In this document: positions 1 through 14,396 of the stretch, in pieces | Numbering within the stretch: position 1 is the stretch's first letter | Layout of the letters: each line of letters starts with the position of its first letter | Virus record (IMG/VR): IMGVR_UViG_3300013103_000007 | Direction: 5' to 3' (one strand) | DNA: 20,000 nt | Source of the DNA: an uncultured virus (IMG/VR IMGVR_UViG_3300013103_000007) | Lineage: Duplodnaviria; Heunggongvirae; Uroviricota; Caudoviricetes | The notes under the pieces: generated by a model | Told to the model about the DNA's origin: nothing | The model's database searches: none | The model's input: only the letters and a program-made list of their open reading frames with translations | Program-made: the position numbers and the translations under genes

Positions 1-624
1 ATTGATAATAATACACAGAATAATGGGCAAGATACAAATTATCATAATAATGATCATGCAACTGTTCATTCGACATATGATTCTTCTAATTTGGGGGGGC
101 ATGATGTTGTTGATAGATCTTCGCATAATGATGGTGTAAAAACAGCTCATTATAATTCTGATAATGGATCTGCTGATACAACACAAAAAGCAACTGACAA
201 TGGAACAGTTCTTTCCTCAAATGATAATTCTGCGCATGGTGGCTTAAATTCAAGTGTTTTAAATGGGGATGACGGATCTTATTTAAGTGGTTATAATAAC
301 GGATATGATAGTGGTGATGATTATGGTTATCACAGCACACATTATTCAGGTCGAGATAGCACCAATTATTCTGGACATGATAATGGTGATAATGGAACAG
401 TTTTAAGCACACATAATGAATCATATCATACTTCTCAAGATGTTGGGGTCGATGCATCCGCGCAGACTGGGTATGAATATACGGATCAAACTACATATAA
501 TACAAATTTATGCTCATCCCATAATAACGCTGTTTATTCCGGTTATGATAATGGGTTAAATACATCACATGATGGAACTAATGATACGACCGTCAAAGCT
601 ACTTTTGATGGTGGTTATGCATAA
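1..624 (+). CDS. Low-complexity N/D/S/T/H/Y/G periodic repeat protein, 5'-truncated; putative radical SAM/glycosyltransferase substrate (paralog 1)
   Basis: Frame 1 is open from base 1 (IDNNTQNNGQDTNYHNNDH...) to TAA at 622-624, so the TTG at 91 is probably internal. It shows a tetrapeptide register (DNGT VLSS NDNS AHGG LNSS VLNG DDGS YLSG YNNG YDSG), and its C-terminus resembles that of the next gene. Confidence 0.85.
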   Translation: MDNNTQNNGQDTNYHNNDHATVHSTYDSSNLGGHDVVDRSSHNDGVKTAHYNSDNGSADTTQKATDNGTVLSSNDNSAHGGLNSSVLNGDDGSYLSGYNNGYDSGDDYGYHSTHYSGRDSTNYSGHDNGDNGTVLSTHNESYHTSQDVGVDASAQTGYEYTDQTTYNTNLCSSHNNAVYSGYDNGLNTSHDGTNDTTVKATFDGGYA

Positions 625-655
625 ATTTTAAAATAATATAAATGGGGTTCTTATT

Positions 656-1630
656 ATGTCATATGTTTGGACTGATGATCCGTTAACCATAAACACTCAA
701 GTGTTTATGCAACATATAGTTGAATTGCGGGAAAAAATTAATATTGAAAGGCAGAATCGTTCTTTATCTAATAGCCTATGGACAGATAATAATTTAAACA
801 ATCAAAATATTAAACCTGTGCATGTCGAAGAATTAAGAACTTCAATAGATGAAGCAAAAACAATTTCAGCTTGTACTTCTCATAATGCAAATTATGATGG
901 AACTGAAAATAGTTCATTTGATAATTCTGATGATAATGTTGTATATAATAACCATGATACAGATTTTGATGGATCATTTGCAACAAATTGTACGGCTGTT
1001 GATACAACACATGATTCAATAGCCAATGGCAATCATAATATATCTGATGATGCATCTGAAAATTTAACTGTGCATTCTGGGTATAATGGAACTGATGATT
1101 CATCACAATACATATCAGTTCTAACAACACATAACTCCAACCAAGATACTACACACGATTCTTCAAATTATGGAACAAATGATGGATCCAGAAATGTATC
1201 ATATGAATCAAGTGATGATTCTGGTGCAAATAATTCTGTTTATTCATCGAATGATTCAGGAGTTGACTCATATGATAATTATTCTGTCGATTCCGGAGAT
1301 AATTATGCATATGATTCTTATGATGATGGAACAGTTCAATCAAATTATGATGGAACAGTTCAATCAAGTAATTTGGTAGGGGCTGATGCTTCTGATGATA
1401 CAACAGTTAATGCAACATATAATACAACAGTTCATGCAGCAGCGGACGGGACAAAATATTCAGGTCATTTGCAAGGTGTTTATTCAACATATAATAGCAC
1501 TGTACAATCATCACATAATAATAGTGAATTAAATGATAATCATTCTGGGTATAATAATGATTTAAATACATCAATTCATGGAAGCTATAATGGATCCGAT
1601 TGTCAGTCAGTCGGCAATGGTGGAGAATAA
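656..1630 (+). CDS. Repeat protein with duplicated WTD..HxxELR N-terminal motif and a 4/8-residue periodic core; putative modified virion-associated protein or precursor (paralog 2)
   Basis: 324-aa ORF with GGGG upstream of the ATG. The first ~70 aa contain WTDDPL..QHIVELREKIN and WTDNNL..IKPVHVEELRTSID, followed by ~250 aa of X-(D/N)-(S/T/G)-(S/T/G)-type tetrapeptides. Confidence 0.85.
   Translation: MSYVWTDDPLTINTQVFMQHIVELREKINIERQNRSLSNSLWTDNNLNNQNIKPVHVEELRTSIDEAKTISACTSHNANYDGTENSSFDNSDDNVVYNNHDTDFDGSFATNCTAVDTTHDSIANGNHNISDDASENLTVHSGYNGTDDSSQYISVLTTHNSNQDTTHDSSNYGTNDGSRNVSYESSDDSGANNSVYSSNDSGVDSYDNYSVDSGDNYAYDSYDDGTVQSNYDGTVQSSNLVGADASDDTTVNATYNTTVHAAADGTKYSGHLQGVYSTYNSTVQSSHNNSELNDNHSGYNNDLNTSIHGSYNGSDCQSVGNGGE
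1323..1367 (+). repeat. 24-nt period tandem duplication (21 bp identical, ATGATGGAACAGTTCAATCAA) encoding DGTVQS twice
   Basis: Identical copies at 1323-1343 and 1347-1367, exactly 8 codons apart. Confidence 0.9.
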
Positions 1631-1659
1631 ATTTTTTAAAAATTTAATATGGAGCAATT

Positions 1660-1992
1660 ATGAATTTTATTGAAATATTGGAAGAATCACCGAAAGATGC
1701 AGCACTGGCTTCTTTAACAGCTATTTTGTTAAAGAATAATTTTGAAGATCAAAGAAATATGTATGAGCAATTGAGGGAATATTTCAAGGCCAATAAAGAT
1801 AATTTAGATGCACATATGTCTAAAGTATTTGAAATATTTAAAATCGAAAAAGCAAACAATGAACTATTGTTAAATGCTTTGATGGTTGGTGAAAAAAATA
1901 CAACAATATTATTAAAAAACAAATATGAGCAACATGCGCCAAAATCCACGGGTGCAAAAATGTCACCTAAAATCAAACAATGGTGGGAATAA
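1660..1992 (+). CDS. Hypothetical protein (110 aa, predicted helical) within the radical SAM cluster
   Basis: GGAG Shine-Dalgarno at 1651-1654, ATG start, normal protein composition. Confidence 0.75.
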   Translation: MNFIEILEESPKDAALASLTAILLKNNFEDQRNMYEQLREYFKANKDNLDAHMSKVFEIFKIEKANNELLLNALMVGEKNTTILLKNKYEQHAPKSTGAKMSPKIKQWWE

Positions 1993-1996
1993 TATA

Positions 1997-2179
1997 ATGG
2001 AAATTAATATCGAAAAAGCTATAGCATTACGTGATATATCGAATTTTCGTAGTGAATATGAATCCACAATTGCAAATGATAAAACGACTCCTGAAATACA
2101 GGAAATAAAAAATGGATACAAAAACACATTATTGTTATCCAATATTACATTAATTCGAAATAAATATCTAAATTCTTAA
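1997..2179 (+). CDS. Hypothetical protein (60 aa)
   Basis: ATG at 1997 (MEINIEKAIALRD...) lies 4 nt after the upstream stop and is preferred over the overlapping 1925 start. The ORF fills the gap to the radical SAM gene. Confidence 0.65.
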   Translation: MEINIEKAIALRDISNFRSEYESTIANDKTTPEIQEIKNGYKNTLLLSNITLIRNKYLNS

Positions 2180-2196
2180 AGGATGCAGCGAATATT

Positions 2197-3414
2197 ATGA
2201 ATTGCATAGATGAATACCCAAAGGCCATTGAAGAAAAAATTTTAAATCGAATCTCAGGAATTGAATTAGTTGTATCTGAAAAATGTCAAAATAATTGCAA
2301 GTATTGTTATCGGGTTAAAAAACATAATGCTTCACCAATAACATATATAACACCAAGTAAAGCCAGATTGTTATTAAATAATTTTTTAGAAACATTTAAA
2401 ATCGATGTTGGTTTCTATTCATCCAGATGCGGTGAATTATTTGGTGGTGATGCTGGTGTAAATTATCAATATTTAAAAGAAATTATTCATATAATGATTT
2501 CTGAGTTCAAATTTAGAAATGTTGTTATACCAACCAATGCCAGACTTTTACAAGAATTAGCCCAACCTGATTTAATAGATTTATTGGAAGCTGGTGAAAA
2601 TAGAGTTTCATTTAGCTTGTCTGTTGATGGCAGCCCACAGGATGCACAAAGATCTCTATCCAAATTTGGTAAAATGTTATCTTATGATGAAAAGATAAAT
2701 TATCAAAAATTGGTCGCTATGGCTAAAAAATATCATTTTGGGTTTCACCCAATGTTGACTTTTGAATCTATTTCAACATGGCTTGATACTGTAAAATCAT
2801 TTTTTGATATGGGTATTGTTCCATATCTTCTGGAGGTTCGGCATCCGTTAATGAAAGATAATGCAATTGATGCTGTTAAAACTTTAGGTAAAATACGACA
2901 ATTTTTAGAACCACGAATTGATAAACAAACGCTTAGGCAATCTAATACTTTGTCTATGTCAATTGTACCACGTGGGTTGGGATGTTCGGCATTGACCACA
3001 ATATCAATTATGCCAAATGGAGATTTACCATTTTGTCATAGAGTTGTTGACCCGCCGTGGGTAAAAGGAAACGTTCTTGAAAAAACAATTAATTTTTCAA
3101 AAATGATTTCTGAAACTTCTATTTATAATCATCGTAACCATCCGTTATGTATGGCCTGTGTTATTCGTGATTTGTGTGCAGGTCAATGCGCAGGTGCATC
3201 ATATGAATACTGGGGCGATCCCTGGATTCCAATTGAATCCATTTGTAATTTTCAACGATTGAAAACTTATATCTTTGCTGAAATTTTTGATGATTGGAAG
3301 AATATATATGATAGCCATAATCAACATTCAATTGAAAAAGATACATTAAAAAATACAGTTGAGAATACATATGGTGCAGATACAATAAACAAATTATTGT
3401 CGGAGCTGCAATGA
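2197..3414 (+). CDS. Radical SAM protein with C-terminal SPASM-type domain
   Basis: CxxxCxxC (CQNNCKYC), FGGD, PTNA and SLSVDG motifs. SPASM-like Cys array: CSAL..ISIMPNGDLPFCH...CMACVIRDLCAGQC...C. Confidence 0.92.
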   Translation: MNCIDEYPKAIEEKILNRISGIELVVSEKCQNNCKYCYRVKKHNASPITYITPSKARLLLNNFLETFKIDVGFYSSRCGELFGGDAGVNYQYLKEIIHIMISEFKFRNVVIPTNARLLQELAQPDLIDLLEAGENRVSFSLSVDGSPQDAQRSLSKFGKMLSYDEKINYQKLVAMAKKYHFGFHPMLTFESISTWLDTVKSFFDMGIVPYLLEVRHPLMKDNAIDAVKTLGKIRQFLEPRIDKQTLRQSNTLSMSIVPRGLGCSALTTISIMPNGDLPFCHRVVDPPWVKGNVLEKTINFSKMISETSIYNHRNHPLCMACVIRDLCAGQCAGASYEYWGDPWIPIESICNFQRLKTYIFAEIFDDWKNIYDSHNQHSIEKDTLKNTVENTYGADTINKLLSELQ

Positions 3415-4376
3415 AATGTTTATTTATAAATTTAGATAGAGGTGCTGGGGTTTCATTAATTGGTGAATTGTTTTTAGATATTATAAAAAGATTTGGTGGA
3501 ATCAATTCGATCGATGTTTATACGACCCAATGTATAAATCAATCTAAAGAATTTATAAATTACGAATATGATATTGCAATAATAAATGATTATTCGCCTC
3601 ATGCAATGACATATAAAAATATATTTGCAAATAATAAATTCAAATATATTTTAAATATATCGCATGGTACACTATCACAAATTCCTGACTGGATGACTGG
3701 GTCAATTGATTTAAATTATGAATATGTAATTAACCCAAATCATAAAGCCCGAAATATAAATAAAATTTTTCCATTACATTTTGTACCAGGTAATATATGG
3801 GAAAATAAAGATAAACCAAGAATAAATGATAGATTTGTATACGCCGGTAGAATATCAAATGATAAATTGCCGTGTGACGTTTTACAAAAGTTGAATTGTA
3901 ATATTGATGTTTATGGTTTTATCACAGACCAAAAATACTATGAAACAATTAAACATTTGATTAATTATTGTGGTGAAGCTGACCATAAGCGATTGGTCGA
4001 TGTTTATAATTGTTACAGATATAGTATTTTATTCTCCAACACTGAATGTTTATCAATATCATTACGTGAACAAATAATGTGTGGCACAACCCCATTAATT
4101 ATTGATAAGCAAGGTTATTCAAAATCAATAAATCAATATGTCATAAATTATGATGTTGATAATTTTGGAAAAAATCGACTGCCAATAAATTTAAATTTGA
4201 ATACTTATGTATTTGATTTTAATAAAATGATTTTGAATTTTTTATTAATATTGCGTGGCATAACATTATGCAATTTAACATTTAAGAAAAATAATATTAA
4301 AGAGGTTAACCATCTACACAAACGAAGAACAGGAAATTTAGATTATTCATATGATATCGTAAATTGGAATTTTTGA
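3411..4376 (+). CDS. Glycosyltransferase, GT-B/GT4-like (divergent)
   Basis: FVYAGRISNDK motif and Ex7E motif (ECLSISLRE) followed by QIMCGTTP. ATGA overlap with the radical SAM gene indicates translational coupling. Confidence 0.75.
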   Translation: MKCLFINLDRGAGVSLIGELFLDIIKRFGGINSIDVYTTQCINQSKEFINYEYDIAIINDYSPHAMTYKNIFANNKFKYILNISHGTLSQIPDWMTGSIDLNYEYVINPNHKARNINKIFPLHFVPGNIWENKDKPRINDRFVYAGRISNDKLPCDVLQKLNCNIDVYGFITDQKYYETIKHLINYCGEADHKRLVDVYNCYRYSILFSNTECLSISLREQIMCGTTPLIIDKQGYSKSINQYVINYDVDNFGKNRLPINLNLNTYVFDFNKMILNFLLILRGITLCNLTFKKNNIKEVNHLHKRRTGNLDYSYDIVNWNF

Positions 4377-4391
4377 AGATAGAGGAATATA

Positions 4392-5972
4392 ATGGTTAAA
4401 TATGATTTAAATGATATTGGATTTAATTATAAAGGCATTTCAACATCTAAAACAAAATCAGCTAAAATTGAAGGATCTGATTGGGTGGTTGATGATATCC
4501 CAGTTGATGTAGATACTAATGATGCAATTTCTTTTGTAAAGAACTTTATAAAAGGTATTACAGCCATTGAAATACCCACGTCTTTGGTTTGTAATCTACG
4601 ATGTAGATATTGTTATATAGATGATCCTAGAATGAAAAATAAGGTTGTTTCAAGCGATGTGGTGCACAAGATATTAAAAGAAAGTTCTGAAATGTTTCCA
4701 TCGTTATCGCCGGATGAAAAAGTTAGAAAATCATTAACAAAAGATGGAAAAGTTTATTTATCTCCGTGGGGAGCCGAACCATTTGCAAATATTTCAACTC
4801 TTGAAACTATGCAACAATTTGCAAGAGAAACATATGGCAAAGGTAATTATAAATTAAATACTTCAACGAATGGAACGTTTTGGAATAAACGGATTGAAAA
4901 TTTATTTCACAATATGATTGTTGATGAAGCATTTACATCAATTCAAGTATCGTTAGATGGGCCAAAATCACTACAAGATTTTCAAAGGCCAATATTAGGC
5001 GGCGCAGGTTCATATGATAAGATTGAAAATTTTGTTGGAAATCTATCCCATTTATCAAAAGAACATAATTTAAAGAATAGACCATATACGTTTTGTTCAA
5101 CTATTCATTTAAAAGACGAAAAATTTGCAGACAATTGGATAGCAGCAGCTGAATTTTTTTCAACCCCGAATAAATGGTATACATCTTTACCCGTATTGCC
5201 GATGCGTATGTCTGGTGAAGATATGGATAATAAAGAATTAGTTAATCGATTCTTGGATGCTCAACGAAAAATGGTTGAACTTGTAAAACGTAGAACTAAA
5301 GAAAATATAACAACTATTGATTTTTATTCATATAAATTATTTGGCAACACGAGCAGTAGAAGTAAAAATGCATTTCCATATTGCTCAGCATTAAACACCC
5401 AAATTGGGGTGGACGTCGATGGATCTCTTTATCCATGCCATGGCCCAATAACAACACCAATGCAAAAACCATTTTTATGGTACGGAAATCTTTTTGATAA
5501 AGTTATTTCATATAGACAATTATATAGAAATTTCAGTTATCAATATGGAACCTTGTGGACAAGAGCCAGATGTGTTGATTGCCCGGTATATAACTATTCA
5601 AGTGGTAATGTTTGTTGGAGTTGTCCTATTCATAATTTAGGTGTTACAGAAGAGCCATCTATGGATAGTCTACATAAATGTTTTGCATATGAACAAGCGT
5701 ATAAATATTGGATTCAGATAGCAAAAATGACAATTAACAATCCAATACTAAATGATATACCCAGTGGGTGGTTTAATGACAATAGTGTAAATTTACCCAT
5801 TGTGAAAAACCCAATTGAAGCAATTGATAAGAATTCTCATTTCAACATGGCGTATGATGGAATGATTGATAGGGGCATTCGTAGATTTATTCCTGGTGGG
5901 AATTTTGAAAATGTCCAATTTAAAGATAGTTGGTGGAATTTCAATAATTATATTGAAATTATAAACAAATAA
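4392..5972 (+). CDS. Second radical SAM protein with SPASM-type domain
   Basis: CNLRCRYC, WGAEP, STNGT and VSLDGP motifs. C-terminal CSAL..IGVDVDGSLYPCH...CVDC...CWSC...C. GAGG upstream. Confidence 0.92.
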   Translation: MVKYDLNDIGFNYKGISTSKTKSAKIEGSDWVVDDIPVDVDTNDAISFVKNFIKGITAIEIPTSLVCNLRCRYCYIDDPRMKNKVVSSDVVHKILKESSEMFPSLSPDEKVRKSLTKDGKVYLSPWGAEPFANISTLETMQQFARETYGKGNYKLNTSTNGTFWNKRIENLFHNMIVDEAFTSIQVSLDGPKSLQDFQRPILGGAGSYDKIENFVGNLSHLSKEHNLKNRPYTFCSTIHLKDEKFADNWIAAAEFFSTPNKWYTSLPVLPMRMSGEDMDNKELVNRFLDAQRKMVELVKRRTKENITTIDFYSYKLFGNTSSRSKNAFPYCSALNTQIGVDVDGSLYPCHGPITTPMQKPFLWYGNLFDKVISYRQLYRNFSYQYGTLWTRARCVDCPVYNYSSGNVCWSCPIHNLGVTEEPSMDSLHKCFAYEQAYKYWIQIAKMTINNPILNDIPSGWFNDNSVNLPIVKNPIEAIDKNSHFNMAYDGMIDRGIRRFIPGGNFENVQFKDSWWNFNNYIEIINK

Positions 5973-5987
5973 TTTTTGGAGGTTAGC

Positions 5988-6272
5988 ATGACTAATTTTA
6001 TACTGAAAGATGCATCATCAACCGAAGTTGTAAATGTAAATCTTACAAATTCACAGATTAGCGGAGACACTACACGGTTAAACATTGGAATAACTTTGCC
6101 TGATGGCGTTATTACACTTGGTTCATTTTTCAGTCAATTTGGGCTGGTATGTTCTTTTACTTTGGATGGGGCACAGGTTTGCTCGGGGACTCTTCGGTCT
6201 ATTAATATTTCATCCACACAAAATGAAGCCGGAGATGATTTTGATAATTTCCAGTTTGGTGTTGAGCTTTAA
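5988..6272 (+). CDS. Hypothetical beta-rich protein (94 aa), last gene of the radical SAM cluster
   Basis: GGAGG at 5978-5982 precedes ATG 5988, a better start than TTG 5976. The gene is followed by a terminator. Confidence 0.75.
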   Translation: MTNFILKDASSTEVVNVNLTNSQISGDTTRLNIGITLPDGVITLGSFFSQFGLVCSFTLDGAQVCSGTLRSINISSTQNEAGDDFDNFQFGVEL

Positions 6273-6284
6273 ATAATATTAACT

Positions 6285-6334
6285 AATTAATATGGCTGGG
6301 TGGTATATCATGTCCAGCCATATTAATTGTTTTT
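6285..6334 (+). terminator. Intrinsic terminator-like hairpin closing the radical SAM cluster
   Basis: Perfect 15-bp inverted repeat AATTAATATGGCTGG (6285-6299) / CCAGCCATATTAATT (6314-6328), followed by GTTTTT. Confidence 0.8.
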
Positions 6335-6382
6335 ACCCCCTCCTTCCGACATCTTTCTGTAATACCCCCCATACGTTCAAAC

Positions 6383-6401
6383 AATTTAACTATATATATT
6401 A
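6383..6401 (+). promoter_or_regulatory. Candidate phage early-type promoter motif AATTTA-N4-TATATATTA
   Basis: Intergenic, upstream of the small-gene block. The same motif with the same spacing occurs on the minus strand at 16501-16483. Confidence 0.4.
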
Positions 6402-6904: not shown

Positions 6905-7118
6905 ACATGATGAAGTAATGGTTACAGTTACTTCAACAGGGTTCGGTATTATGATTAATTTTTTGAATATTGAATTATGGAATTCGGAAGATGATGGACG
7001 CAGTTATCTTGATGAAGAAAATGATATAATGGAAGATTTGGAAATGTATTTACGTAGTCGTATTGTTGAAGAAATCAATGTTATTTCAACAATTGACTTG
7101 GGTATAGATATAGTGTAA
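6837..7118 (+). CDS. Small highly acidic hypothetical protein (93 aa)
   Basis: AAGGAG precedes ATG 6837 (MIGLLEIE...). About 22 D/E against 3 R and no K. TAATG overlap with the next gene. Confidence 0.8.
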   Translation: MIGLLEIELIVEQLNTEIYTQIEHDEVMVTVTSTGFGIMINFLNIELWNSEDDGRSYLDEENDIMEDLEMYLRSRIVEEINVISTIDLGIDIV

Positions 7119-7639
7119 TGAATAATACAATGAAGGCTGAAATTTACGCTTTTGGTAAACATCTTTATCAAAGGCGTAAATATACAAATGAATTATATTT
7201 TACACATTTGTATAATGTAGCTGAAATTGTTAGGCAAGTTCCACATATCTCGGATATGATAGCAGCTGCATTTTTACACGATGTGGTGGAAGATACGGAT
7301 GCAACCATGGATGATATTAGAAGAATTTTCAATTGGAATATTGCAACTCTTGTTGAAATGCTAACCGATGTTAGTCGTCCAGCAGATGGTAATAGAAAAA
7401 GGCGAAAGCGTATTGATTTATTACATACCAAAATTGCAAACCCAGATGCAAAAACAATAAAACTAGCAGATTTAATTGATAACAGCAAATCCATAATAAT
7501 ATTTGACCCAAAATTTGCAAAAGTTTATATGGCAGAGAAGAAACTTTTGCTCGAAGTTTTGAAAGAAGGTGACAATACATTATGGAAAGAGGCTAAACAA
7601 ATTGTTGATAATTATTACAAGGAGAATAAAGGAGAATAA
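7118..7639 (+). CDS. HD-domain protein, RelA/SpoT-hydrolase (Mesh1/small alarmone hydrolase)-like
   Basis: HxxQRRKY...YFTH, AAFLHDVVEDT, LTD and IKLADLIDN motifs, typical of stand-alone (p)ppGpp hydrolase-type HD domains. Confidence 0.88.
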   Translation: MNNTMKAEIYAFGKHLYQRRKYTNELYFTHLYNVAEIVRQVPHISDMIAAAFLHDVVEDTDATMDDIRRIFNWNIATLVEMLTDVSRPADGNRKRRKRIDLLHTKIANPDAKTIKLADLIDNSKSIIIFDPKFAKVYMAEKKLLLEVLKEGDNTLWKEAKQIVDNYYKENKGE

Positions 7640-8185
7640 ATGTTATTAGAGAATGAAAATAATATCATGGTTGATATAGAAACAATGGATCTTTCAACAA
7701 ATGCAGCTATTGTTTCTATAGGTGCGGTTAGATTTTCAAAAGATGGAATTGTTGATACATTTCATCTTCCTGTATCATTAAAAAGTTCCATGAAAGTTGG
7801 GCTTAAAATTTCATCAGAAACTATTATGTGGTGGCTAAAACAAGATCAAAATACATCTGCATTTTTTGTTGACGCAAAGGACACCTTGCATGGAGTATTG
7901 AGGGAATTTAATTATTTTGTTAAAGAAGATTCACAAATATGGGGTAATGGATCTGATTTTGATAATGCCATTTTAACCAATGCGTATAAGAAATGTGGTA
8001 TTGAACCGAAATGGGAATATTATGATAATATGTGTTATCGAACAATTTCAAATTTGTTTAAACATTTAGGTGAGGATTATGTACACCCAACGATTCCTCA
8101 TAATGCATTGGAAGATGCAAGAAGCCAAGCTTTGTATTTAATTAAATTATGTAATCATATTAATGCGGGTATGCATAGTTTATAG
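7640..8185 (+). CDS. DEDDh 3'-5' exonuclease (RNase AS / phage exonuclease-like)
   Basis: IMVDIET (ExoI), WGNGSDFD (ExoII) and HNALEDA (ExoIII) motifs; AAGGAG Shine-Dalgarno. Confidence 0.9.
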   Translation: MLLENENNIMVDIETMDLSTNAAIVSIGAVRFSKDGIVDTFHLPVSLKSSMKVGLKISSETIMWWLKQDQNTSAFFVDAKDTLHGVLREFNYFVKEDSQIWGNGSDFDNAILTNAYKKCGIEPKWEYYDNMCYRTISNLFKHLGEDYVHPTIPHNALEDARSQALYLIKLCNHINAGMHSL

Positions 8186-8464: not shown

Positions 8465-10105
8465 ATGAATACATCATTATCAGCAGATGGTAAATTTGTA
8501 AACGATGAAAAATTATATCAAAATTTCTTAGTTATATTCCAAAATAATTTTGTTTGGCAAACACAACAATGTAAAAATCTGTTTAAAACAAAAAGCCAAA
8601 ATCTATTTGATATTTTTCTGAATAATTTACCTGTCGAAAGTGAAGAAGAAAAACAACATTTTAATTGTAATGCTTGTCGTTCATTTGTAAATAAATATTG
8701 TGGACTGGTTACAGTTGATGATAACGGCATTATAAATCCAGTTTTTTTAAATAGCTCTGGTATGTCTGAATATTATAAAACTGCTATTGATGAAATGTAT
8801 AATTATGTTAGAAAAAGTATTGTCAGCGGAGTTTTTTATACAAATAAAAAGGAATGGGGTCACCATATAACTGATGAATGGTCTCATATGGCAATTACAC
8901 CAGAGAGAAAATTTGTCTATAGAAGTTTGGTTAAAACACCTGGCCAATATTCAGCTGAAAAATTGCAAGATTATTTAATGTTAATTGCAGCAATTAAAAA
9001 ATATCCGGAAGATTCAATTGTTGAAGTAATAAAAGTTTTAACAACAAATCAGCTTATGCGTAGCGAAAAATTTATGACAAGCGCAAGTTGGTTTCTGGGT
9101 ATTCATAAGGTTATTGGTGACATGGGAAAACGTGAAACCAGTAATTATTTATGGAAAGTTGTAGCTGAAGCACCTGTTGGGTTTTGTCATATCAGTTCAT
9201 CTATGCTAGGGACATTATTGGATGGTATTAAAGAAGGTTTGTCATTTAGTCGAATTAAAGAATCATTCAATGAAAAAATGGATCCGACCCAATATCAACG
9301 GCCACAAACCCCCCCGTCAGTAGGTAATATTGACCAGGCTGAAAAAATTGTAGCTGATTTGGGGATTGAAAAATCTTTATTGCGTAAATATGCAAAAGCT
9401 GATGAAGTTATTGGTGCGTCATTTTGGGTGTCAACACGGTGCCCTGATTGTAATGAAAAGGGCCGTGAAGATGGTGTATTTTCAAAACTTAGGAAAAATA
9501 ATGTTGCATCTGTATCAAAAATAGATACACCGCCTATATCAATTTCATGGTATAAATTCGCCAAAACTATTTTACCAACTGCTCAGGAAATGAAATTTAT
9601 AATTCCAAATAGTGCACCATATTGTGGAATATTAACATGTTTGCATGATGATGCTCCACCTATTATATTGTGGGATAGTGATTCAGAAGAAAGGAATCCT
9701 TATTCATGGTATGTTTACCCACACCTAACTGATTCTTATTTATGGGGGTTGGCTCCTAATCAATCAGCTAAAGTAAAATCAATTTGTCACAAACCATCTC
9801 AATGGCAATCTGATAAATTTACAAAAATATTTGGTGATGGCGTAATTTTAATTTTAGATGGGTGCTGTGATAGTCGCTGGTTTGAAGTTGGGTCGTGTTT
9901 ATTTCCAGAAATATTAAGATCCGAGCTCAATCCAGTTAGAAAAACAATTAATGCATTTTCAGAAAAAACTAAAATAATTGGTGGGGATGGAGATGATTTA
10001 GCGTGTGGTGTCTTGTATCAAGATGATGTTAAACGAGCAATGACATTAGCTGTTAAAAGTTTAGATAATATTGAAAATAAATATTTGATTGATCGCTGGG
10101 ATTAA
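8465..10105 (+). CDS. Large uncharacterised phage-type protein (546 aa) with HxxCxxC motif
   Basis: Long ORF with AAGGAG Shine-Dalgarno; motifs QHFNCNACRSF, GFCH and DPTQYQRP. No function can be assigned by eye. Confidence 0.8.
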   Translation: MNTSLSADGKFVNDEKLYQNFLVIFQNNFVWQTQQCKNLFKTKSQNLFDIFLNNLPVESEEEKQHFNCNACRSFVNKYCGLVTVDDNGIINPVFLNSSGMSEYYKTAIDEMYNYVRKSIVSGVFYTNKKEWGHHITDEWSHMAITPERKFVYRSLVKTPGQYSAEKLQDYLMLIAAIKKYPEDSIVEVIKVLTTNQLMRSEKFMTSASWFLGIHKVIGDMGKRETSNYLWKVVAEAPVGFCHISSSMLGTLLDGIKEGLSFSRIKESFNEKMDPTQYQRPQTPPSVGNIDQAEKIVADLGIEKSLLRKYAKADEVIGASFWVSTRCPDCNEKGREDGVFSKLRKNNVASVSKIDTPPISISWYKFAKTILPTAQEMKFIIPNSAPYCGILTCLHDDAPPIILWDSDSEERNPYSWYVYPHLTDSYLWGLAPNQSAKVKSICHKPSQWQSDKFTKIFGDGVILILDGCCDSRWFEVGSCLFPEILRSELNPVRKTINAFSEKTKIIGGDGDDLACGVLYQDDVKRAMTLAVKSLDNIENKYLIDRWD

Positions 10106-10244: not shown

Positions 10245-10748
10245 ATGAAAATTTATGGTATTGATTTACATGGTGAAATAACAGTTAGCACTAATGGAAC
10301 GTATGATATTGGGGATGCAACACATCGGCTGGGGGATGTATACGGAACATCATTTGATGGTGTAGCAACCTCATCTCAATATGCTGATCTTGCGGAACGA
10401 TATACTATTAATGGTGATTACGAAAAAGGTGATGTTATTTTATTTGATCACGCAAGTACTGGCAAAGATGGTATTAAATCATATGAAACCGCTTCAAATA
10501 AAATTCTTGGAGTTGTTAGTTCTAATCCAGGATTTTTAATGGATAGCAAATTAGATGGTGGTGTGCCTATTGCTCTTACTGGAAAAGTTCCTTGTAAGGT
10601 TTTTGGAATTGTTAGGAGAGGTGATCGACTTATTAGTTCACAAGATGGCGGGGCAATTGTTGCACCCGATTCAAATGGTCAAACAGTTGGTCGTAGTTTG
10701 CAAAACAGCGAAATTATAGATGCGAAAATAATTTTAATAAAAATTTAA
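10245..10748 (+). CDS. Tail-associated protein with peptidase G2 / intramolecular-chaperone (IMC)-like autoproteolytic domain
   Basis: YADLAERY, GVVSSNPGFLM and IALTGKVPCKVFG..RRGDRLISS..VGRSL signature, usually found at phage tail-fibre C-termini. Confidence 0.75.
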   Translation: MKIYGIDLHGEITVSTNGTYDIGDATHRLGDVYGTSFDGVATSSQYADLAERYTINGDYEKGDVILFDHASTGKDGIKSYETASNKILGVVSSNPGFLMDSKLDGGVPIALTGKVPCKVFGIVRRGDRLISSQDGGAIVAPDSNGQTVGRSLQNSEIIDAKIILIKI

Positions 10749-11396: not shown

Positions 11397-12458
11397 ATGA
11401 AAAAAATCCTCCTGTTTGATTCAGGTCAAGCATTTACTTTAAACTCTCTGAGCCATCAACCTATTGGTGGTTCAGAGAGTTCTATTCTTTTATTGGCTAA
11501 AGGTTTAACCCAATTAGGCAATTCCGTTGTACTCCTTAATAATTCAAATATCGGCGTGGAAATATCAGGTCGACTTCAAATTGACCACATTTCAAATTTT
11601 GATGCATATGCAAATGTATGTGATATTATATTGTTTAATCGAATACCTGCTTCAACATTTCGCAATTATGTTGGCCATAAAAAAATGTATATATGGTGCC
11701 ATGATGCATACGACCAGAATAATTGCAAATGGATGATAAATGCGGATCCGACTAAGTTATTTGAAAAAGTATTTTTTGTTTCTGAATGGCAGAGGGGTAC
11801 ATGCCATCGTTATTTAAACTTCAATATTTCAGCATCTGAAATTCTTCCTAATTGTTTAGATCCACATATGGATTTCTCACCCAGTCTTGAAAAATCTATG
11901 AATAGACTTATTTTTACAAGTGTTCCCTATAAAGGAATCGATGTATTAAAAGATATTTTTGATTCGTTATGTATTAAAACAAAAAGAGATGATCTCGAAT
12001 TTTATATTTACTCATCCTTGGGGCTGTATAATCAAAAAGAAAGCGATTCTCAATATGAAAAAGTATTTCATTCTTTAATAAATACATCTGGTATTCACGT
12101 GAAAGAAAGCGTACCAATGCTGGAAATTAACAAACAATATATATTATCCAATTTATTAATCCACCCTGGATTATATCATGAAACATTTGGGCGTGTGTTT
12201 ATAGATGGGATGATGTGTGGTTGTTTACCTGTTACAGTTAATAATGGTGCGTCAAAAGAAGTTATAAAAAACAATGGCTACATTTTAGATCAGCCTAATG
12301 TATTCCACGAAGGAACATTTAATAAATTTGTAGATCTAATTATTCATGCATTAAATGATCCACATCTTGAAACAAAACGAAAATCAGCAAAAGCATATTC
12401 ATTAACATATGATTATGTTAGAGTCGCGAAGAAATTTTTGGATCTTATTGAAATTTAA
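11397..12458 (+). CDS. Glycosyltransferase family 4-like (GT-B)
   Basis: N-terminal IGGSESSILLLAKGL..GNSV, WCHD, FVSEWQ, and C-terminal ETFGRVFIDGMMCG motif; GGAG Shine-Dalgarno. Confidence 0.88.
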   Translation: MKKILLFDSGQAFTLNSLSHQPIGGSESSILLLAKGLTQLGNSVVLLNNSNIGVEISGRLQIDHISNFDAYANVCDIILFNRIPASTFRNYVGHKKMYIWCHDAYDQNNCKWMINADPTKLFEKVFFVSEWQRGTCHRYLNFNISASEILPNCLDPHMDFSPSLEKSMNRLIFTSVPYKGIDVLKDIFDSLCIKTKRDDLEFYIYSSLGLYNQKESDSQYEKVFHSLINTSGIHVKESVPMLEINKQYILSNLLIHPGLYHETFGRVFIDGMMCGCLPVTVNNGASKEVIKNNGYILDQPNVFHEGTFNKFVDLIIHALNDPHLETKRKSAKAYSLTYDYVRVAKKFLDLIEI

Positions 12459-12764: not shown

Positions 12765-14396
12765 ATGAAAATTCTTCTACCACTTTTAAAAACAATTGAA
12801 ATTGAATTAAGATCATCAAGAGGTCAGCTTGAATCGAAAACAATATGGGAAGAACTATCAAATCTTTCTGATTGGGAGAATCGTATTGTAAACGATTTTA
12901 TATTGCGCGTAAGAATGTCAATTGAATCAGGAAGTATGAATTTTGTTTGGAGACATTTTGAAAAACAAATCGCAGATTCTACCATTCAAACAACCAGGCC
13001 AGGCTATGATATTTGTATTGCATCTCTTCGTCGGAGTAAGGATGACATTCCTTTAACAGACGCACGAAATCGCCTGTATATTCCAAATAATATGACTGTT
13101 GATATAATGGATATATTTGGTTTGGAAGTGGTTCAAGCGCGCAATGTGGCGGTCATTGAAGCTTTGAAAAGAGGAGCTAAGAAATTATTATTTATTGATG
13201 ATGATATATTAGTTCCTATAAATGCATTGAGCAAATTATTACATTTGATGGAATCAACTAAATCAAAAGTTGTCGCTGGAGATTATCTTAAAAAGATTGA
13301 GCCGCATGATACAGCTCATAAATTTAAATGCCCATGTCCGGTTGAAGGATTTGAAGAAGATATACATCTTTGCGATTTGTGTGCAATGGGATTTTGTTTA
13401 ATTGATTTAGATTTTGTAGCAGGAAATGTGCCCCTCCCCCTATTCTGGGCATTTGGTGATCCGCTAGATCCTAGATATTGGTTGATGGGCGAGGATGCAT
13501 TTTTTACAAAAAATCTATTGGAGTATACTGGTGAGGTTCCATTAGCAATTGATTTAAAAATTATCCATTGTGATAAGATAAATAAAAAAATATTTGGTGG
13601 CGATACAAAAAATGTAAAATATGCATCCAGCCAATTTGCGACATCCGAACAATTTGATGCATTGCGTACACCTCAAATATCTCCTAAAATTTTAATTGGT
13701 GTACCCACCCGCAAAGAGAATGACCCAATCGTTTCTAATATTCAAAAACTACCTATTCCTAGAGGGTATACTGCAGAACTTTATCAAGTTTGGGGGATGC
13801 AGGTCGATGAAGCTAGAACTGCTATTGTCAAAGAAGCAATAAAAAGAGATTGTCATTATGTATTATTTATTGATGATGATGTTGTATTACCCACGGATGC
13901 CATCTATAAGATGGTTGAACATATTGAAAAGGATGGGATAGATATTATATCTGGCGAATATACATTAAAGGGTATTCCAACACATTCAATCCATCTACAA
14001 ATAAATGATAAAAAAATGGTGGATCATATTGGAAATGTTACTCCGAAAGAGATAAGTTTATTTGAAAATAATTGGCTTGTTGGTTTGGGATGTGCTTTAA
14101 TTGATATACGATTCTTTAAGCAAGCAAGAGAGCCTTGGTTTGTATGCCATAATAAAAACAAAGATGGGGTCATGATAAGCGAAGATGCTCATATGTCTGA
14201 GCTTGCAATTCTAAATGGTTTTCATATCTGGATTGATAGGGATATAAAATGTTTGCATGTTGATTTAGAAAATCATATAATTTACACACCGTTGGAAAGT
14301 GAGTTAGGAATTGATATTAATTCCTATTCATTTAACCCTTCGATTTTTTCACCTGGTAATAAATTCACATTTAAATGCGTTGATAAGGAGAAATAA
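12765..14396 (+). CDS. Tandem double GT-A (GT2-like) glycosyltransferase
   Basis: Two homologous units: ARN..A..G..LLFIDDD...MGFCLID...GEDAFF...H and ART..A....VLFIDDD...LGCALID...SEDAHM...H. Confidence 0.85.
   Translation: MKILLPLLKTIEIELRSSRGQLESKTIWEELSNLSDWENRIVNDFILRVRMSIESGSMNFVWRHFEKQIADSTIQTTRPGYDICIASLRRSKDDIPLTDARNRLYIPNNMTVDIMDIFGLEVVQARNVAVIEALKRGAKKLLFIDDDILVPINALSKLLHLMESTKSKVVAGDYLKKIEPHDTAHKFKCPCPVEGFEEDIHLCDLCAMGFCLIDLDFVAGNVPLPLFWAFGDPLDPRYWLMGEDAFFTKNLLEYTGEVPLAIDLKIIHCDKINKKIFGGDTKNVKYASSQFATSEQFDALRTPQISPKILIGVPTRKENDPIVSNIQKLPIPRGYTAELYQVWGMQVDEARTAIVKEAIKRDCHYVLFIDDDVVLPTDAIYKMVEHIEKDGIDIISGEYTLKGIPTHSIHLQINDKKMVDHIGNVTPKEISLFENNWLVGLGCALIDIRFFKQAREPWFVCHNKNKDGVMISEDAHMSELAILNGFHIWIDRDIKCLHVDLENHIIYTPLESELGIDINSYSFNPSIFSPGNKFTFKCVDKEK

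What the first reader, a model, noticed from the sequence alone, without database searches (positions are those of the whole stretch)
1..6334. Candidate phage-encoded RiPP-like modification system: periodic repeat proteins + two radical SAM/SPASM enzymes + glycosyltransferase
Seen: a co-oriented, tightly spaced cluster of at least two paralogous N/D/S/T/H/Y/G repeat proteins, 110- and 60-aa ORFs, rSAM-SPASM, a translationally coupled GT4-like gene, a second rSAM-SPASM and a 94-aa ORF, closed by a terminator. Established: SPASM-domain radical SAM enzymes are typically peptide/protein maturases (thioether and C-C cross-links, epimerisation, formylglycine) encoded beside their substrates, and these substrates often have a leader plus a low-complexity core. 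Inference: the repeat proteins are the substrates and are modified iteratively, possibly also glycosylated. The precursors are unusually long (324 aa), Cys-poor and in a phage structural context, so they do not match any RiPP class I recognise. The product could be a chemically modified virion fibre rather than a small natural product.
Basis: partly seen in the sequence, partly recalled or inferred. Interest (0 to 1): 0.92.

Follow-up and report, generated by a model that had tools for sequence, protein, structure and literature searches.

The report
Phage radical-SAM cassette for repeat fibre proteins
An uncultivated phage carries a gene set, shared with related uncultivated phages, in which two iron-sulfur radical enzymes and a sugar-adding enzyme sit beside long His/Tyr repeat proteins that they most likely modify chemically, a kind of virus-protein finishing not yet described in print.

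Summary
Window 1-6334 holds a tight, co-oriented operon that ends in a strong terminator. It encodes two paralogous repeat proteins, three small ORFs, two unrelated radical SAM/SPASM enzymes and a GT-B/GT4-fold glycosyltransferase.

Of 33 sources holding the second rSAM, the first rSAM lies beside it in 29. All 15 sources with at least 2 kb on both flanks carry one or more repeat-protein genes within 1.9 kb. In relatives the cassette lies among tail-fibre genes.

The cores are [H/Y]-[D/N]-[S/T]-x tetrads with significant period 4/8. A conserved Cys-x-x-[H/Y] marks the start of the core.

The "WTD..HxxELR leader" is not a private leader. It is one unit of a widespread domain that normally has three tandem units, mostly in multidomain bacterial proteins. 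The phage proteins have one or two units, which suggests trimerisation.

No curated family cut-off is met. The closest analogues are the bacterial HXS system (two rSAMs, a small protein and a His-x-Ser repeat protein) and triceptide cyclophane synthases.

Modification, its chemistry and virion location remain inferred. The four literature searches aimed at a phage version listed no paper describing it.

The parts
1..624 (+). 3' part (207 codons) of repeat-protein paralogue 1; its start lies outside the window
   Evidence: Open frame from base 1. N/S/D/G/T/Y/H make up 162 of 207 residues. 32% identical to the next gene over 188 aa. Lag-8 periodicity z 4.5.
656..1630 (+). Repeat-protein paralogue 2 (324 aa). 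It has two N-terminal WTD..HxxELR units (656-766, 767-889), a junction Cys73-x-x-His76 (872-883), and a core of about 245 aa made of [H/Y]-[D/N]-[S/T]-x tetrads.
   Evidence: No Pfam or NCBIfam family above cut-off.
1660..1992 (+). Small protein of 110 aa with no known family; candidate helper
   Evidence: Relatives lie just upstream of rSAM1 in L001, L004, L005, L006, L012, L013, L014 and L015 (phmmer E 4.5e-4 to 3.5e-8). No Pfam family.
1997..2179 (+). Small protein of 60 aa (84 aa if it starts at 1925); candidate helper
   Evidence: Relatives in L001, L004, L006, L008, L011-L015, always directly before rSAM1. No Pfam family.
2197..3414 (+). Radical SAM/SPASM enzyme 1 (405 aa)
   Evidence: C30-x3-C34-x2-C37 and the canonical SPASM set C263, G275-x4-C280, C318-x2-C321-x5-C327-x3-C331 and C350 are invariant in 20 of 20 sequences. 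TIGR04085 SPASM scores 36 bits against a cut-off of 27. Best family is QhpD, 65 bits against a cut-off of 453.
3411..4376 (+). GT-B/GT4-fold glycosyltransferase (321 aa); its start overlaps the rSAM1 stop by 4 nt
   Evidence: AF2 pLDDT 84.3, pTM 0.87. Foldseek gives 159 PDB matches at E<=0.001, led by GT4 enzymes (7fga_A E 1.6e-7, BshA, WbnH, MshA; GtfA at rank 50). E212 and E220 are invariant in 20 of 20.
4392..5972 (+). Radical SAM/SPASM enzyme 2 (526 aa)
   Evidence: C67, C71 and C74 plus C331, C349, C394, C397, C408, C411 and C430 are invariant in 49 of 49 sequences. Best family is PapB, 91 bits over residues 56-420 against a cut-off of 340. Only 27% identical to enzyme 1, over 86 aa.
5976..6272 (+). 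Small protein of 98 aa (94 aa from the ATG at 5988), unknown function
   Evidence: 30% identical to the ORF directly after rSAM2 in L004 (E 4e-7). No detectable match to the small ORFs of L003. No Pfam family.
6284..6329 (+). Intrinsic-terminator-like hairpin that closes the operon
   Evidence: 19-bp stem, 8-nt loop, then a T-run.

Best explanation
This is a dedicated protein-maturation cassette of an uncultivated phage lineage.

Substrates: the two (or more) paralogous repeat proteins. Each has one or two N-terminal WTD..HxxELR units, a conserved Cys-x-x-[H/Y] junction, and a long core of [H/Y]-[D/N]-[S/T]-x tetrads.

Enzymes: two different radical SAM/SPASM enzymes modify the core repeatedly by hydrogen-atom abstraction. 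The most likely products are side-chain cross-links at the regularly spaced His/Tyr-x-Ser/Thr motifs (triceptide/HXS-like). One enzyme may act at the junction Cys. In most lineages a GT4 glycosyltransferase adds sugar to the Ser/Thr-rich core. The small ORFs probably serve as helpers.

Product: it stays protein-sized and is probably a trimeric fibre-module (virion) component rather than a diffusible peptide.

Shown here: the gene content, enzyme motifs and GT fold, the periodicity, and the conserved linkage.

Inferred: that modification occurs, its chemistry, trimerisation, and virion location.
For: **Linkage.** The rSAM2 family has 52 members at E<=5.2e-55 including the window's own protein, then a gap to generic maturases at E 2.4e-8. 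In 33 sources (32 loci plus the window), rSAM1 lies beside rSAM2 in 29. A repeat-protein ORF lies 3-1863 nt from the pair in 15 of 15 sources with at least 2 kb on both flanks, and in 10 of the 18 shorter ones.

**Enzymes.** The best HMM matches of both are peptide/protein maturases: QhpD, PapB, SCIFF, nif11, DynA and HxsB. SPASM cysteines are invariant.

**Substrates.** The tetrad consensus comes from 47 ORFs. In 34 cores from other loci, aromatic-aromatic spacing has z 8.7 at lag 4 and z 15.8 at lag 8. The junction Cys is conserved after the last unit. Substrates diverge faster than enzymes: 29-37% against 46-63% for window vs L004, and 89-90% against 98-100% (rSAM1, rSAM2; GT 92%) for L022 vs L023.

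**Protein-sized fibre context.** Tail-fibre genes flank the cassette in L001, L002, L003 and L014. One substrate is fused to Gly_rich_2 (35.4 bits, cut-off 24.3) and one to a Hint domain (37.8 bits, cut-off 32.1).

**N-terminal units.** The unit is normally present three times in tandem: 140 of the 150 best hits. A three-unit protein is predicted with pLDDT 89.8. Phage proteins carry only 1-2 units.

**Glycosyltransferase.** GT fold and invariant E212/E220.

**Precedent.** The HXS system shows that two rSAMs plus a small protein mature a His-x-Ser repeat protein (PMC13128918, abstract and sections 9-10 read).
Against: - No experiment or proteome shows any modification, or that these proteins are in virions.
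- Neither rSAM reaches any curated family cut-off. Pfam Radical_SAM is just under its gathering score for both: 26.4 and 27.8 bits against 29.5.
- The best-scoring families (PapB, QhpD) make Cys thioethers, but the cores hold only 1.5% Cys, so the chemistry cannot be copied from them.
- No RRE/PqqD-like domain, protease or exporter was found in the cassette.
- The N-terminal unit is a generic domain unit of many bacterial proteins, not a private leader.
- The GT is absent from the held flanks of three long loci, L002, L013 and L030.
- In the window itself, the genes directly downstream are an HD hydrolase and an exonuclease. The nearest fibre-like genes start at 10245 and 16593.
Confidence: 0.6

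Rival explanations
1. The matured repeat proteins are not virion parts. They are effectors made in the infected cell. One option is a phage version of the HXS idea: a modified His-x-Ser array that blocks DNA entry of competing phages (superinfection exclusion). Another is a released RiPP-like product.
For: The architecture parallels HXS: small protein, rSAM, rSAM, H-x-S repeat protein. In many loci the gene order is the same, with substrates directly after rSAM2 in L002, L008-L010, L012, L014 and L016 (PMC13128918 section 10). In the window, the cassette sits next to non-structural genes.
Against: - No HxsA, HxsB or HxsC membership: HxsB scores 40 bits against a cut-off of 370, and there is no HxsA hit at E<=1 in 26 substrates.
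- No family match of any kind at the N-termini, so no peptidoglycan-binding domain was detected. By eye, the N-termini (MSYVWTDD...) show no signal peptide.
- There are 2-4 fast-evolving paralogues per locus, set among tail-fibre genes.
- Fusions to Gly_rich_2 and Hint domains.
Confidence: 0.15
2. The repeat proteins are ordinary, unmodified fibre or decoration proteins. The rSAMs and GT act on something else, such as another tail protein, a host envelope glycan or a small molecule.
For: The 8-residue periodicity and polar composition could simply reflect a beta-structured fibre. No recognition domain for the repeat proteins was found in either enzyme.
Against: - The linkage is to the repeat proteins specifically, across lineages whose other neighbours differ.
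- In 11 sources a repeat-protein ORF begins within 50 nt of an rSAM gene.
- SPASM enzymes of the best-matching families act on peptides or proteins encoded beside them (family descriptions).
Confidence: 0.15
3. The rSAMs belong to a DNA-base hypermodification or cofactor pathway of the phage, and the repeat genes are bystanders.
For: Phages do use rSAM enzymes in thymidine hypermodification (PMC8989533, search listing and abstract only). The window also encodes an HD hydrolase, an exonuclease and further GTs.
Against: - Among the families shown (all 21 for rSAM1; the best 25 of 38 for rSAM2), the only cofactor or antiviral matches are weak: MoaA (E 2e-4) and viperin (E 3e-5) for rSAM1, and a tungsten-cofactor maturase (E 6e-7) for rSAM2.
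- The HD and exonuclease genes are not seen beside the cassette in L001-L004, read in full or in part.
- Both enzymes carry full SPASM domains.
Confidence: 0.03

Closest known systems
HXS antiphage system (HxsA effector with His-Xaa-Ser repeats; rSAM enzymes HxsB and HxsC; small protein HxsD). Li et al., Nat Commun 2026, PMC13128918
   Same: Two adjacent rSAM enzymes, a small protein and a whole protein (not a short peptide) carrying His-x-Ser repeats. The usual order, small protein, rSAM, rSAM, repeat protein, also occurs in many of the phage loci. rSAM1 gives a partial HxsB match (E 2e-10).
   Different: - No membership: HxsB scores 40 bits against a cut-off of 370, HxsC is not among the 25 best families of rSAM2, and there is no HxsA hit.
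- Phage-encoded and sited in tail-fibre modules.
- Tens of tetrads with His or Tyr rather than five HxS repeats.
- 2-4 substrate paralogues, a GT4 enzyme, and no peptidoglycan-binding domain.
Triceptide (three-residue cyclophane) synthases such as HtkB, HaaB, YhhB, ChlB and OscB (PMC11499958, first third of the text read)
   Same: Substrates carry repeated aromatic-X-X motifs, including His and Tyr motifs, and the enzymes are rSAM/SPASM. The phage tetrads read [H/Y]-[D/N]-[S/T], which is an aromatic1-X2-X3 pattern.
   Different: - YhhB (39.5 bits, cut-off 445) and GrrM/OscB (29.6 bits, cut-off 310) match only the rSAM core of rSAM2.
- Substrates are 87-374 aa proteins with structured N-terminal units rather than short peptides.
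- Two enzymes per cassette.
- The chemistry here is untested.
PapB (ranthipeptide) and QhpD (quinohaemoprotein amine dehydrogenase maturase), the best-scoring curated families
   Same: Full-length similarity that includes the SPASM part: PapB model positions 2-325 of 330 align to rSAM2 residues 56-420.
   Different: Scores are far under the cut-offs (91 against 340; 65 against 453). Those enzymes join Cys to Asp/Glu, whereas the phage cores hold only 1.5% Cys.
Glycosylation of serine-rich repeat adhesins by GT-B enzymes such as pneumococcal GtfA (PDB 4pqg). The biology is recalled, not tested.
   Same: A GT-B enzyme encoded beside a long Ser/Thr-rich repeat protein. GtfA is among the fold matches of the phage GT (rank 50).
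   Different: The fold match is generic for GT-B/GT4. No sequence-level family hit. The sugar and acceptor are unknown.

Membership tests
Radical SAM superfamily | CxxxCxxC motif for the SAM-binding 4Fe-4S cluster | tested here: met
   rSAM1 C30/C34/C37 are invariant in 20 of 20. rSAM2 C67/C71/C74 are invariant in 49 of 49. Pfam PF04055 lies just under its gathering score: 26.4 and 27.8 bits against 29.5.
SPASM-domain rSAM enzymes | C-terminal seven-Cys motif for two auxiliary clusters (TIGR04085) | tested here: met
   rSAM1: TIGR04085 scores 36 bits against a cut-off of 27, with canonical spacing. rSAM2: seven invariant Cys with variant spacing (C-x2-C-x10-C-x2-C) and alignment across the whole PapB model. 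TIGR04085 itself is not among its 25 listed families.
PapB / ranthipeptide maturases (NF047865) | Score at or above the curated cut-off, and a Cys- and Asp/Glu-containing core | tested here: not met
   91.3 bits (rSAM2) and 54.3 bits (rSAM1) against a cut-off of 340. Cores hold 1.5% Cys.
HXS system (HxsB TIGR03978, HxsC TIGR03977, HxsA) | Equivalog-level matches of both enzymes and of the HxS repeat protein | tested here: not met
   HxsB scores 40.1 bits against 370 for rSAM1. HxsC is not among the 25 best families of rSAM2. None of 26 substrates gives an HxsA hit at E<=1.
HXS system | Architecture: two adjacent rSAMs, a small protein and a protein with His-x-Ser repeats | tested here: met
   Gene order. 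After an aromatic residue, position +2 is S 20%, T 20%, N 14%. Compared with PMC13128918 sections 9-10.
Triceptide synthase/precursor pairs | Enzyme in a cyclophane-synthase family (YhhB NF041707, GrrM/OscB TIGR04261) | tested here: not met
   39.5 bits against 445, and 29.6 bits against 310; N-terminal rSAM core only.
Triceptide synthase/precursor pairs | Aromatic-to-C-beta cross-link (-2 Da) on aromatic1-X2-X3 motifs | not testable with these tools
   The motif pattern is present. The cross-link needs mass spectrometry or NMR.
GT4 retaining glycosyltransferases (GT-B) | GT-B two-Rossmann fold | tested here: met
   AF2 pLDDT 84.3. Top PDB matches are GT4 enzymes with probability 1.00 and TM about 0.6.
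GT4 retaining glycosyltransferases (GT-B) | E-x7-E motif (the motif itself is recalled, not from a call) and a Pfam Glycos_transf_1 hit | tested here: inconclusive
   E212 and E220, seven residues apart, are invariant in 20 of 20. There is no Pfam hit at E<=0.01.
Classical RiPP gene cluster | Short precursor with a private leader, an RRE, and a leader protease and/or exporter | tested here: not met
   Substrates are 87-374 aa. The N-terminal unit is a generic domain unit. No RRE, protease or transporter family was found in window 1-6334.

The most novel reading that the evidence does not exclude
These phages build a new kind of virion fibre. The model is a trimer nucleated by a split three-unit domain, with one or two WTD..HxxELR units contributed per chain. 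Its shaft would be a ladder of up to about 60 His/Tyr tetrads, stapled residue by residue by two radical SAM enzymes and then glycosylated. That would be natural-product (cyclophane-type) chemistry used to harden or tune a host-recognition structure, with the fast-evolving core acting as the specificity element.
Probability: 0.3. Interest if true: 0.9.

Novelty: new variant of a known kind. Interest (0 to 1): 0.8.

Why it matters
Radical SAM/SPASM maturases are known for small bacterial peptides. The 2026 HXS work added one bacterial defence protein.

A conserved viral cassette acting on long, fast-evolving repeat proteins in the tail-fibre module would extend this chemistry to virus particles. 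It would also offer very long iterative substrates (tens of motifs per chain) and two new enzyme families for cross-linking chemistry.

It gives a concrete, testable system: co-expression followed by mass spectrometry. It also defines a widespread, unannotated three-unit domain (4472 representative proteins).

Tried and rejected
**Searches that gave nothing**
- No whole genome is held for the window.
- No DNA match of 1-6400 in 50,697 phage records.
- No tblastn match of the repeat protein there.
- rSAM2 finds only remote relatives (20-26% identity) in 16 phage records, among them Campylobacter phages.
- A single-protein locus search in viral contigs found nothing.
- The word-based homologue search with residues 1-78 of the repeat protein found nothing: 5 candidates, none scored.
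- The rSAM2 profile found no relative in 185,579 prokaryote genomes, so no host or prophage could be named.
- The rSAM1 profile in viral contigs returned the same three contigs plus one cut near-copy of L003.

**Trimer test**
- Three copies of the 113-aa L002 substrate, given with an alignment, gave no verdict: score 0.20 against a mark of 0.42. This is neither support nor evidence against.

**Fold of the three-unit domain**
- No Foldseek PDB match at E<=0.001.
- VIA-align best Z is 7.7, to a designed filament. Z is 6.2 and 5.7 to the beta-alpha-repeat BARA domains of Atg6 and Beclin. All are below the level that separates real matches from common helical arrangements.

**Family scans**
- The small ORFs have no Pfam family at E<=0.1 that recurs between relatives.
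- The weak Trans_reg_C hit on the first unit (18.5 bits against 26.2) is taken as chance.

**ESM Atlas**
- The nearest feature clusters are viral. One has 52% of members carrying an rSAM-target CXXX-repeat family. Scores of 0.81-0.85 make these leads only.

**Composition filter**
- It flagged 49 ORFs. Two (L002 3167-4438, Kelch-like; L003 2-820, lectin-like) were judged false by eye and dropped before the counts.

**Rejected reading**
- DNA hypermodification; see rival explanations.

Full report
**What is there**

Window 1-6334 carries nine co-oriented features on the + strand:
- The last 207 codons of a repeat protein (1-624).
- A 324-aa paralogue (656-1630).
- ORFs of 110 aa (1660-1992) and 60 aa (1997-2179; 84 aa if read from 1925).
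- A 405-aa radical SAM enzyme (2197-3414).
- A 321-aa gene whose start overlaps that stop by 4 nt (3411-4376).
- A 526-aa radical SAM enzyme (4392-5972).
- A 98/94-aa ORF (5976-6272).
- A 19-bp hairpin with a T-run (6284-6329).

Gaps between genes are 3-31 nt. The two repeat proteins align at 32% identity over 188 aa, E 1e-8.

**The enzymes**

rSAM1 has C30-x3-C34-x2-C37 and a canonical seven-Cys SPASM motif, all invariant in 20 of 20 relatives. It passes the SPASM domain model, 36 bits against a cut-off of 27.

rSAM2 has C67/C71/C74 and seven further Cys, invariant in 49 of 49 sequences, with unusual spacing.

Their best curated matches are peptide or protein maturases:
- rSAM1: QhpD 65 bits, ScfB-like 57, PapB 54, HxsB 40.
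- rSAM2: PapB 91 bits, nif11 70, DynA 68, SCIFF 63.

Every score is far below the family cut-offs of 340-855 bits. The two enzymes share only 27% identity over 86 aa of the SPASM part. They are therefore two distinct new families, not recent duplicates.

The 321-aa protein has no Pfam hit. A 20-sequence AF2 model (pLDDT 84.3, pTM 0.87) matches GT-B/GT4 glycosyltransferases: 159 PDB chains at E<=0.001, best 7fga_A at E 1.6e-7. E212 and E220, seven residues apart, are invariant.

The rSAM2 family has 52 members at E<=5.2e-55, all from metagenomes or unnamed assemblies. There is then a gap to generic SPASM maturases at E 2.4e-8.

A profile of 49 members recovered 3 loci in viral contigs and 29 in metagenome contigs. 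It recovered none in 185,579 prokaryote genomes.

In the 33 sources (32 loci plus the window):
- rSAM1 lies beside rSAM2 in 29. The four without it (L007, L009, L024, L025) have at most 2025 nt upstream.
- A composition filter for repeat-protein ORFs flagged 49 ORFs. Two were dropped by eye as false.
- All 15 sources with at least 2 kb on both flanks have one or more such ORFs 3-1863 nt from the rSAM pair.
- Ten of the 18 shorter sources have one too.
- The eight without (L005, L011, L017, L019, L027, L028, L029, L031) all lack sequence on at least one side. In L005 the upstream space is filled by the GT.

Several sources are near-copies: L015 of L001; L021, L022, L023, L025 and L032 of one another. 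About 12 distinct lineages have full flanks.

The GT is common but is absent from the held flanks of L002, L013 and L030, so it is accessory. Relatives of the 110-aa and 60-aa ORFs sit directly before rSAM1 in 8 and 9 other loci. The 98-aa ORF has a relative after rSAM2 in L004.

**Context**

In L001 the cassette lies between a baseplate-like gene, a 1000-aa protein and a 553-aa fibre on one side, and a 350-aa fibre on the other. In L002, L003 and L014 fibre-like genes also adjoin it.

In the window the upstream side is cut off. Downstream come an HD hydrolase, an exonuclease, a widespread phage protein of unknown function, a fibre-C-terminus-like ORF, two more glycosyltransferase-like genes and a fibre gene of more than 1136 aa.

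**The substrates**

Across 47 ORFs the cores (4374 residues) are S 12%, N 12%, T 11%, D 10%, H 8.5%, Y 8.4%, G 7% and C 1.5%. After an aromatic residue:
- Position +1 is D/N/S.
- Position +2 is S/T/N.
- Position +3 is T/G/H.
- Positions +4 and +8 are again enriched in H/Y.

This gives [H/Y]-[D/N]-[S/T]-x tetrads.

Periodicity is significant:
- Window core: z 6.9 at lag 8.
- 34 cores from other, non-duplicate loci: aromatic pairs give z 8.7 at lag 4 and z 15.8 at lag 8, and z -7 at lags 2 and 6.

A Cys followed three residues later by H or Y is conserved right after the last N-terminal unit: C73 and H76 in the window protein, and NYCRTH[YN] in another subfamily.

None of 26 substrates gave a match above a curated cut-off in their N-terminal or core parts. 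In particular there is no HxsA hit.

Substrates diverge faster than the enzymes:

| Pair | Substrates | rSAMs and GT |
|---|---|---|
| Window vs L004 | 29-37% | 46-63% |
| L022 vs L023 | 89-90% | 92-100% |

**The "leader" is a unit of a widespread domain**

A profile of 19 WTD..HxxELR units found 4472 representative proteins at E<=0.001 and 1908 at E<=1e-10.

Of the 150 best, 140 have three tandem units, 7 have two, 1 has four and 2 have five. In the 25 proteins scanned, the units sit at an end of bacterial proteins with Ig-like, fn3, TIG, peptidase or RHS parts, or form the whole of proteins of about 105-175 aa. Pfam does not cover them.

A three-unit protein is predicted confidently (pLDDT 89.8) with one long helix per unit. 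No convincing PDB fold match was found.

Six of the seven two-unit proteins are members of the phage substrate family. Because the phage proteins carry one or two units, I infer that three chains complete the domain. This is an inference only.

One database protein (P0159) has three units followed by a Cys-rich CxC tail. The units can therefore precede other maturase-type tails.

**Protein-sized product**

One substrate (L014 9175-10281) continues into a Gly_rich_2 domain, 35.4 bits against a cut-off of 24.3. Another (L003 12545-13495) continues directly into a Hint domain, 37.8 bits against 32.1. A third ends in a proline-rich tail.

**Comparison with what is known**

The closest analogue is the HXS system (PMC13128918; abstract and sections 9-10 read). 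In it, rSAM enzymes HxsB and HxsC and the small HxsD mature HxsA. HxsA is a whole protein with five His-x-Ser repeats and a +8 Da change on an SHRSS motif. The usual gene order is D-B-C-A.

Triceptide synthases cross-link aromatic1-X2-X3 motifs, including His and Tyr motifs (PMC11499958; abstract, introduction and first results read).

The phage tetrads fit both patterns, but no membership test is met. I therefore file the cassette as working like these systems, not as a member of them.

I recall, without a call, that octapeptide repeats build the triple beta-helix of the T4 gp5 needle. That fits the period of 8 but was not tested.

**Novelty**

Five full-text searches were run. Four were aimed at a phage-encoded rSAM cassette acting on tail-module repeat proteins. 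None of the listings showed such a paper. Only titles and abstract starts were seen, apart from the two papers read.

Earlier unchecked notes of this scan report similar cassettes in other phage genomes, several with Cys-His-x-Ser tetrads. One of them pointed me to the HXS paper.

**Verdict**

Modification, chemistry, trimer state and virion location remain to be shown.

Noticed in passing
window 656-889; database proteins P0074-P0222: The WTD..HxxELR unit belongs to a widespread domain of three tandem ~35-aa units. There are 4472 representative proteins at E<=0.001. It is not covered by Pfam in the 25 proteins scanned, is predicted with pLDDT 89.8, and has no convincing PDB fold match.
   Followed up: partly
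L003 12545-13495: A substrate-family protein whose repeat core runs straight into a Hint (intein-like) domain. This suggests self-cleavage or transfer at the C-terminal end of the core.
   Followed up: partly
L014 9175-10281; L008 5543-6424: Substrate-family proteins fused to a Gly_rich_2 domain (L014) or ending in a long proline-rich tail (L008).
   Followed up: partly
database protein P0159 (148 aa): Three WTD..HxxELR units followed by a Cys-rich CxC-type tail. This may be another maturase substrate class that uses the same N-terminal units.
   Followed up: no
window 8465-10105: A 546-aa protein of PHROG 1735 (E 5.7e-92), function unknown. It has relatives in 528 phage records (101 covering at least 80%), among them Rhizobium, Ralstonia, Xanthomonas and Brevibacillus phages.
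   Followed up: no
window 11397-12458 and 12765-14396: Two further glycosyltransferase-like genes: a GT4-like one (PHROG 2170, E 2.4e-17) and a 543-aa protein with weak GT2-type matches in both halves. Together with the cassette GT, this phage has unusual glycosylation capacity near its fibre genes.
   Followed up: no
window 7118-8185: An HD_4 phosphohydrolase (E 7.7e-14) and an Rv2179c-like 3'-5' exoribonuclease (E 1e-44) lie directly after the cassette. They are not seen next to it in the relatives L001-L004, read in full or in part.
   Followed up: no
window 10245-10748: A 167-aa ORF matching the C-terminal parts of tail-fibre PHROGs (22593, 19602). By eye, the same module ends the fibre genes beside the cassette in L001, L002, L003 and L014.
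   Followed up: no
L023 3056-4251: rSAM1 is split into two ORFs (135 and 257 aa) in this locus, while its near-copies L021, L022 and L032 have it whole. This is either a frameshift or an assembly error.
   Followed up: no
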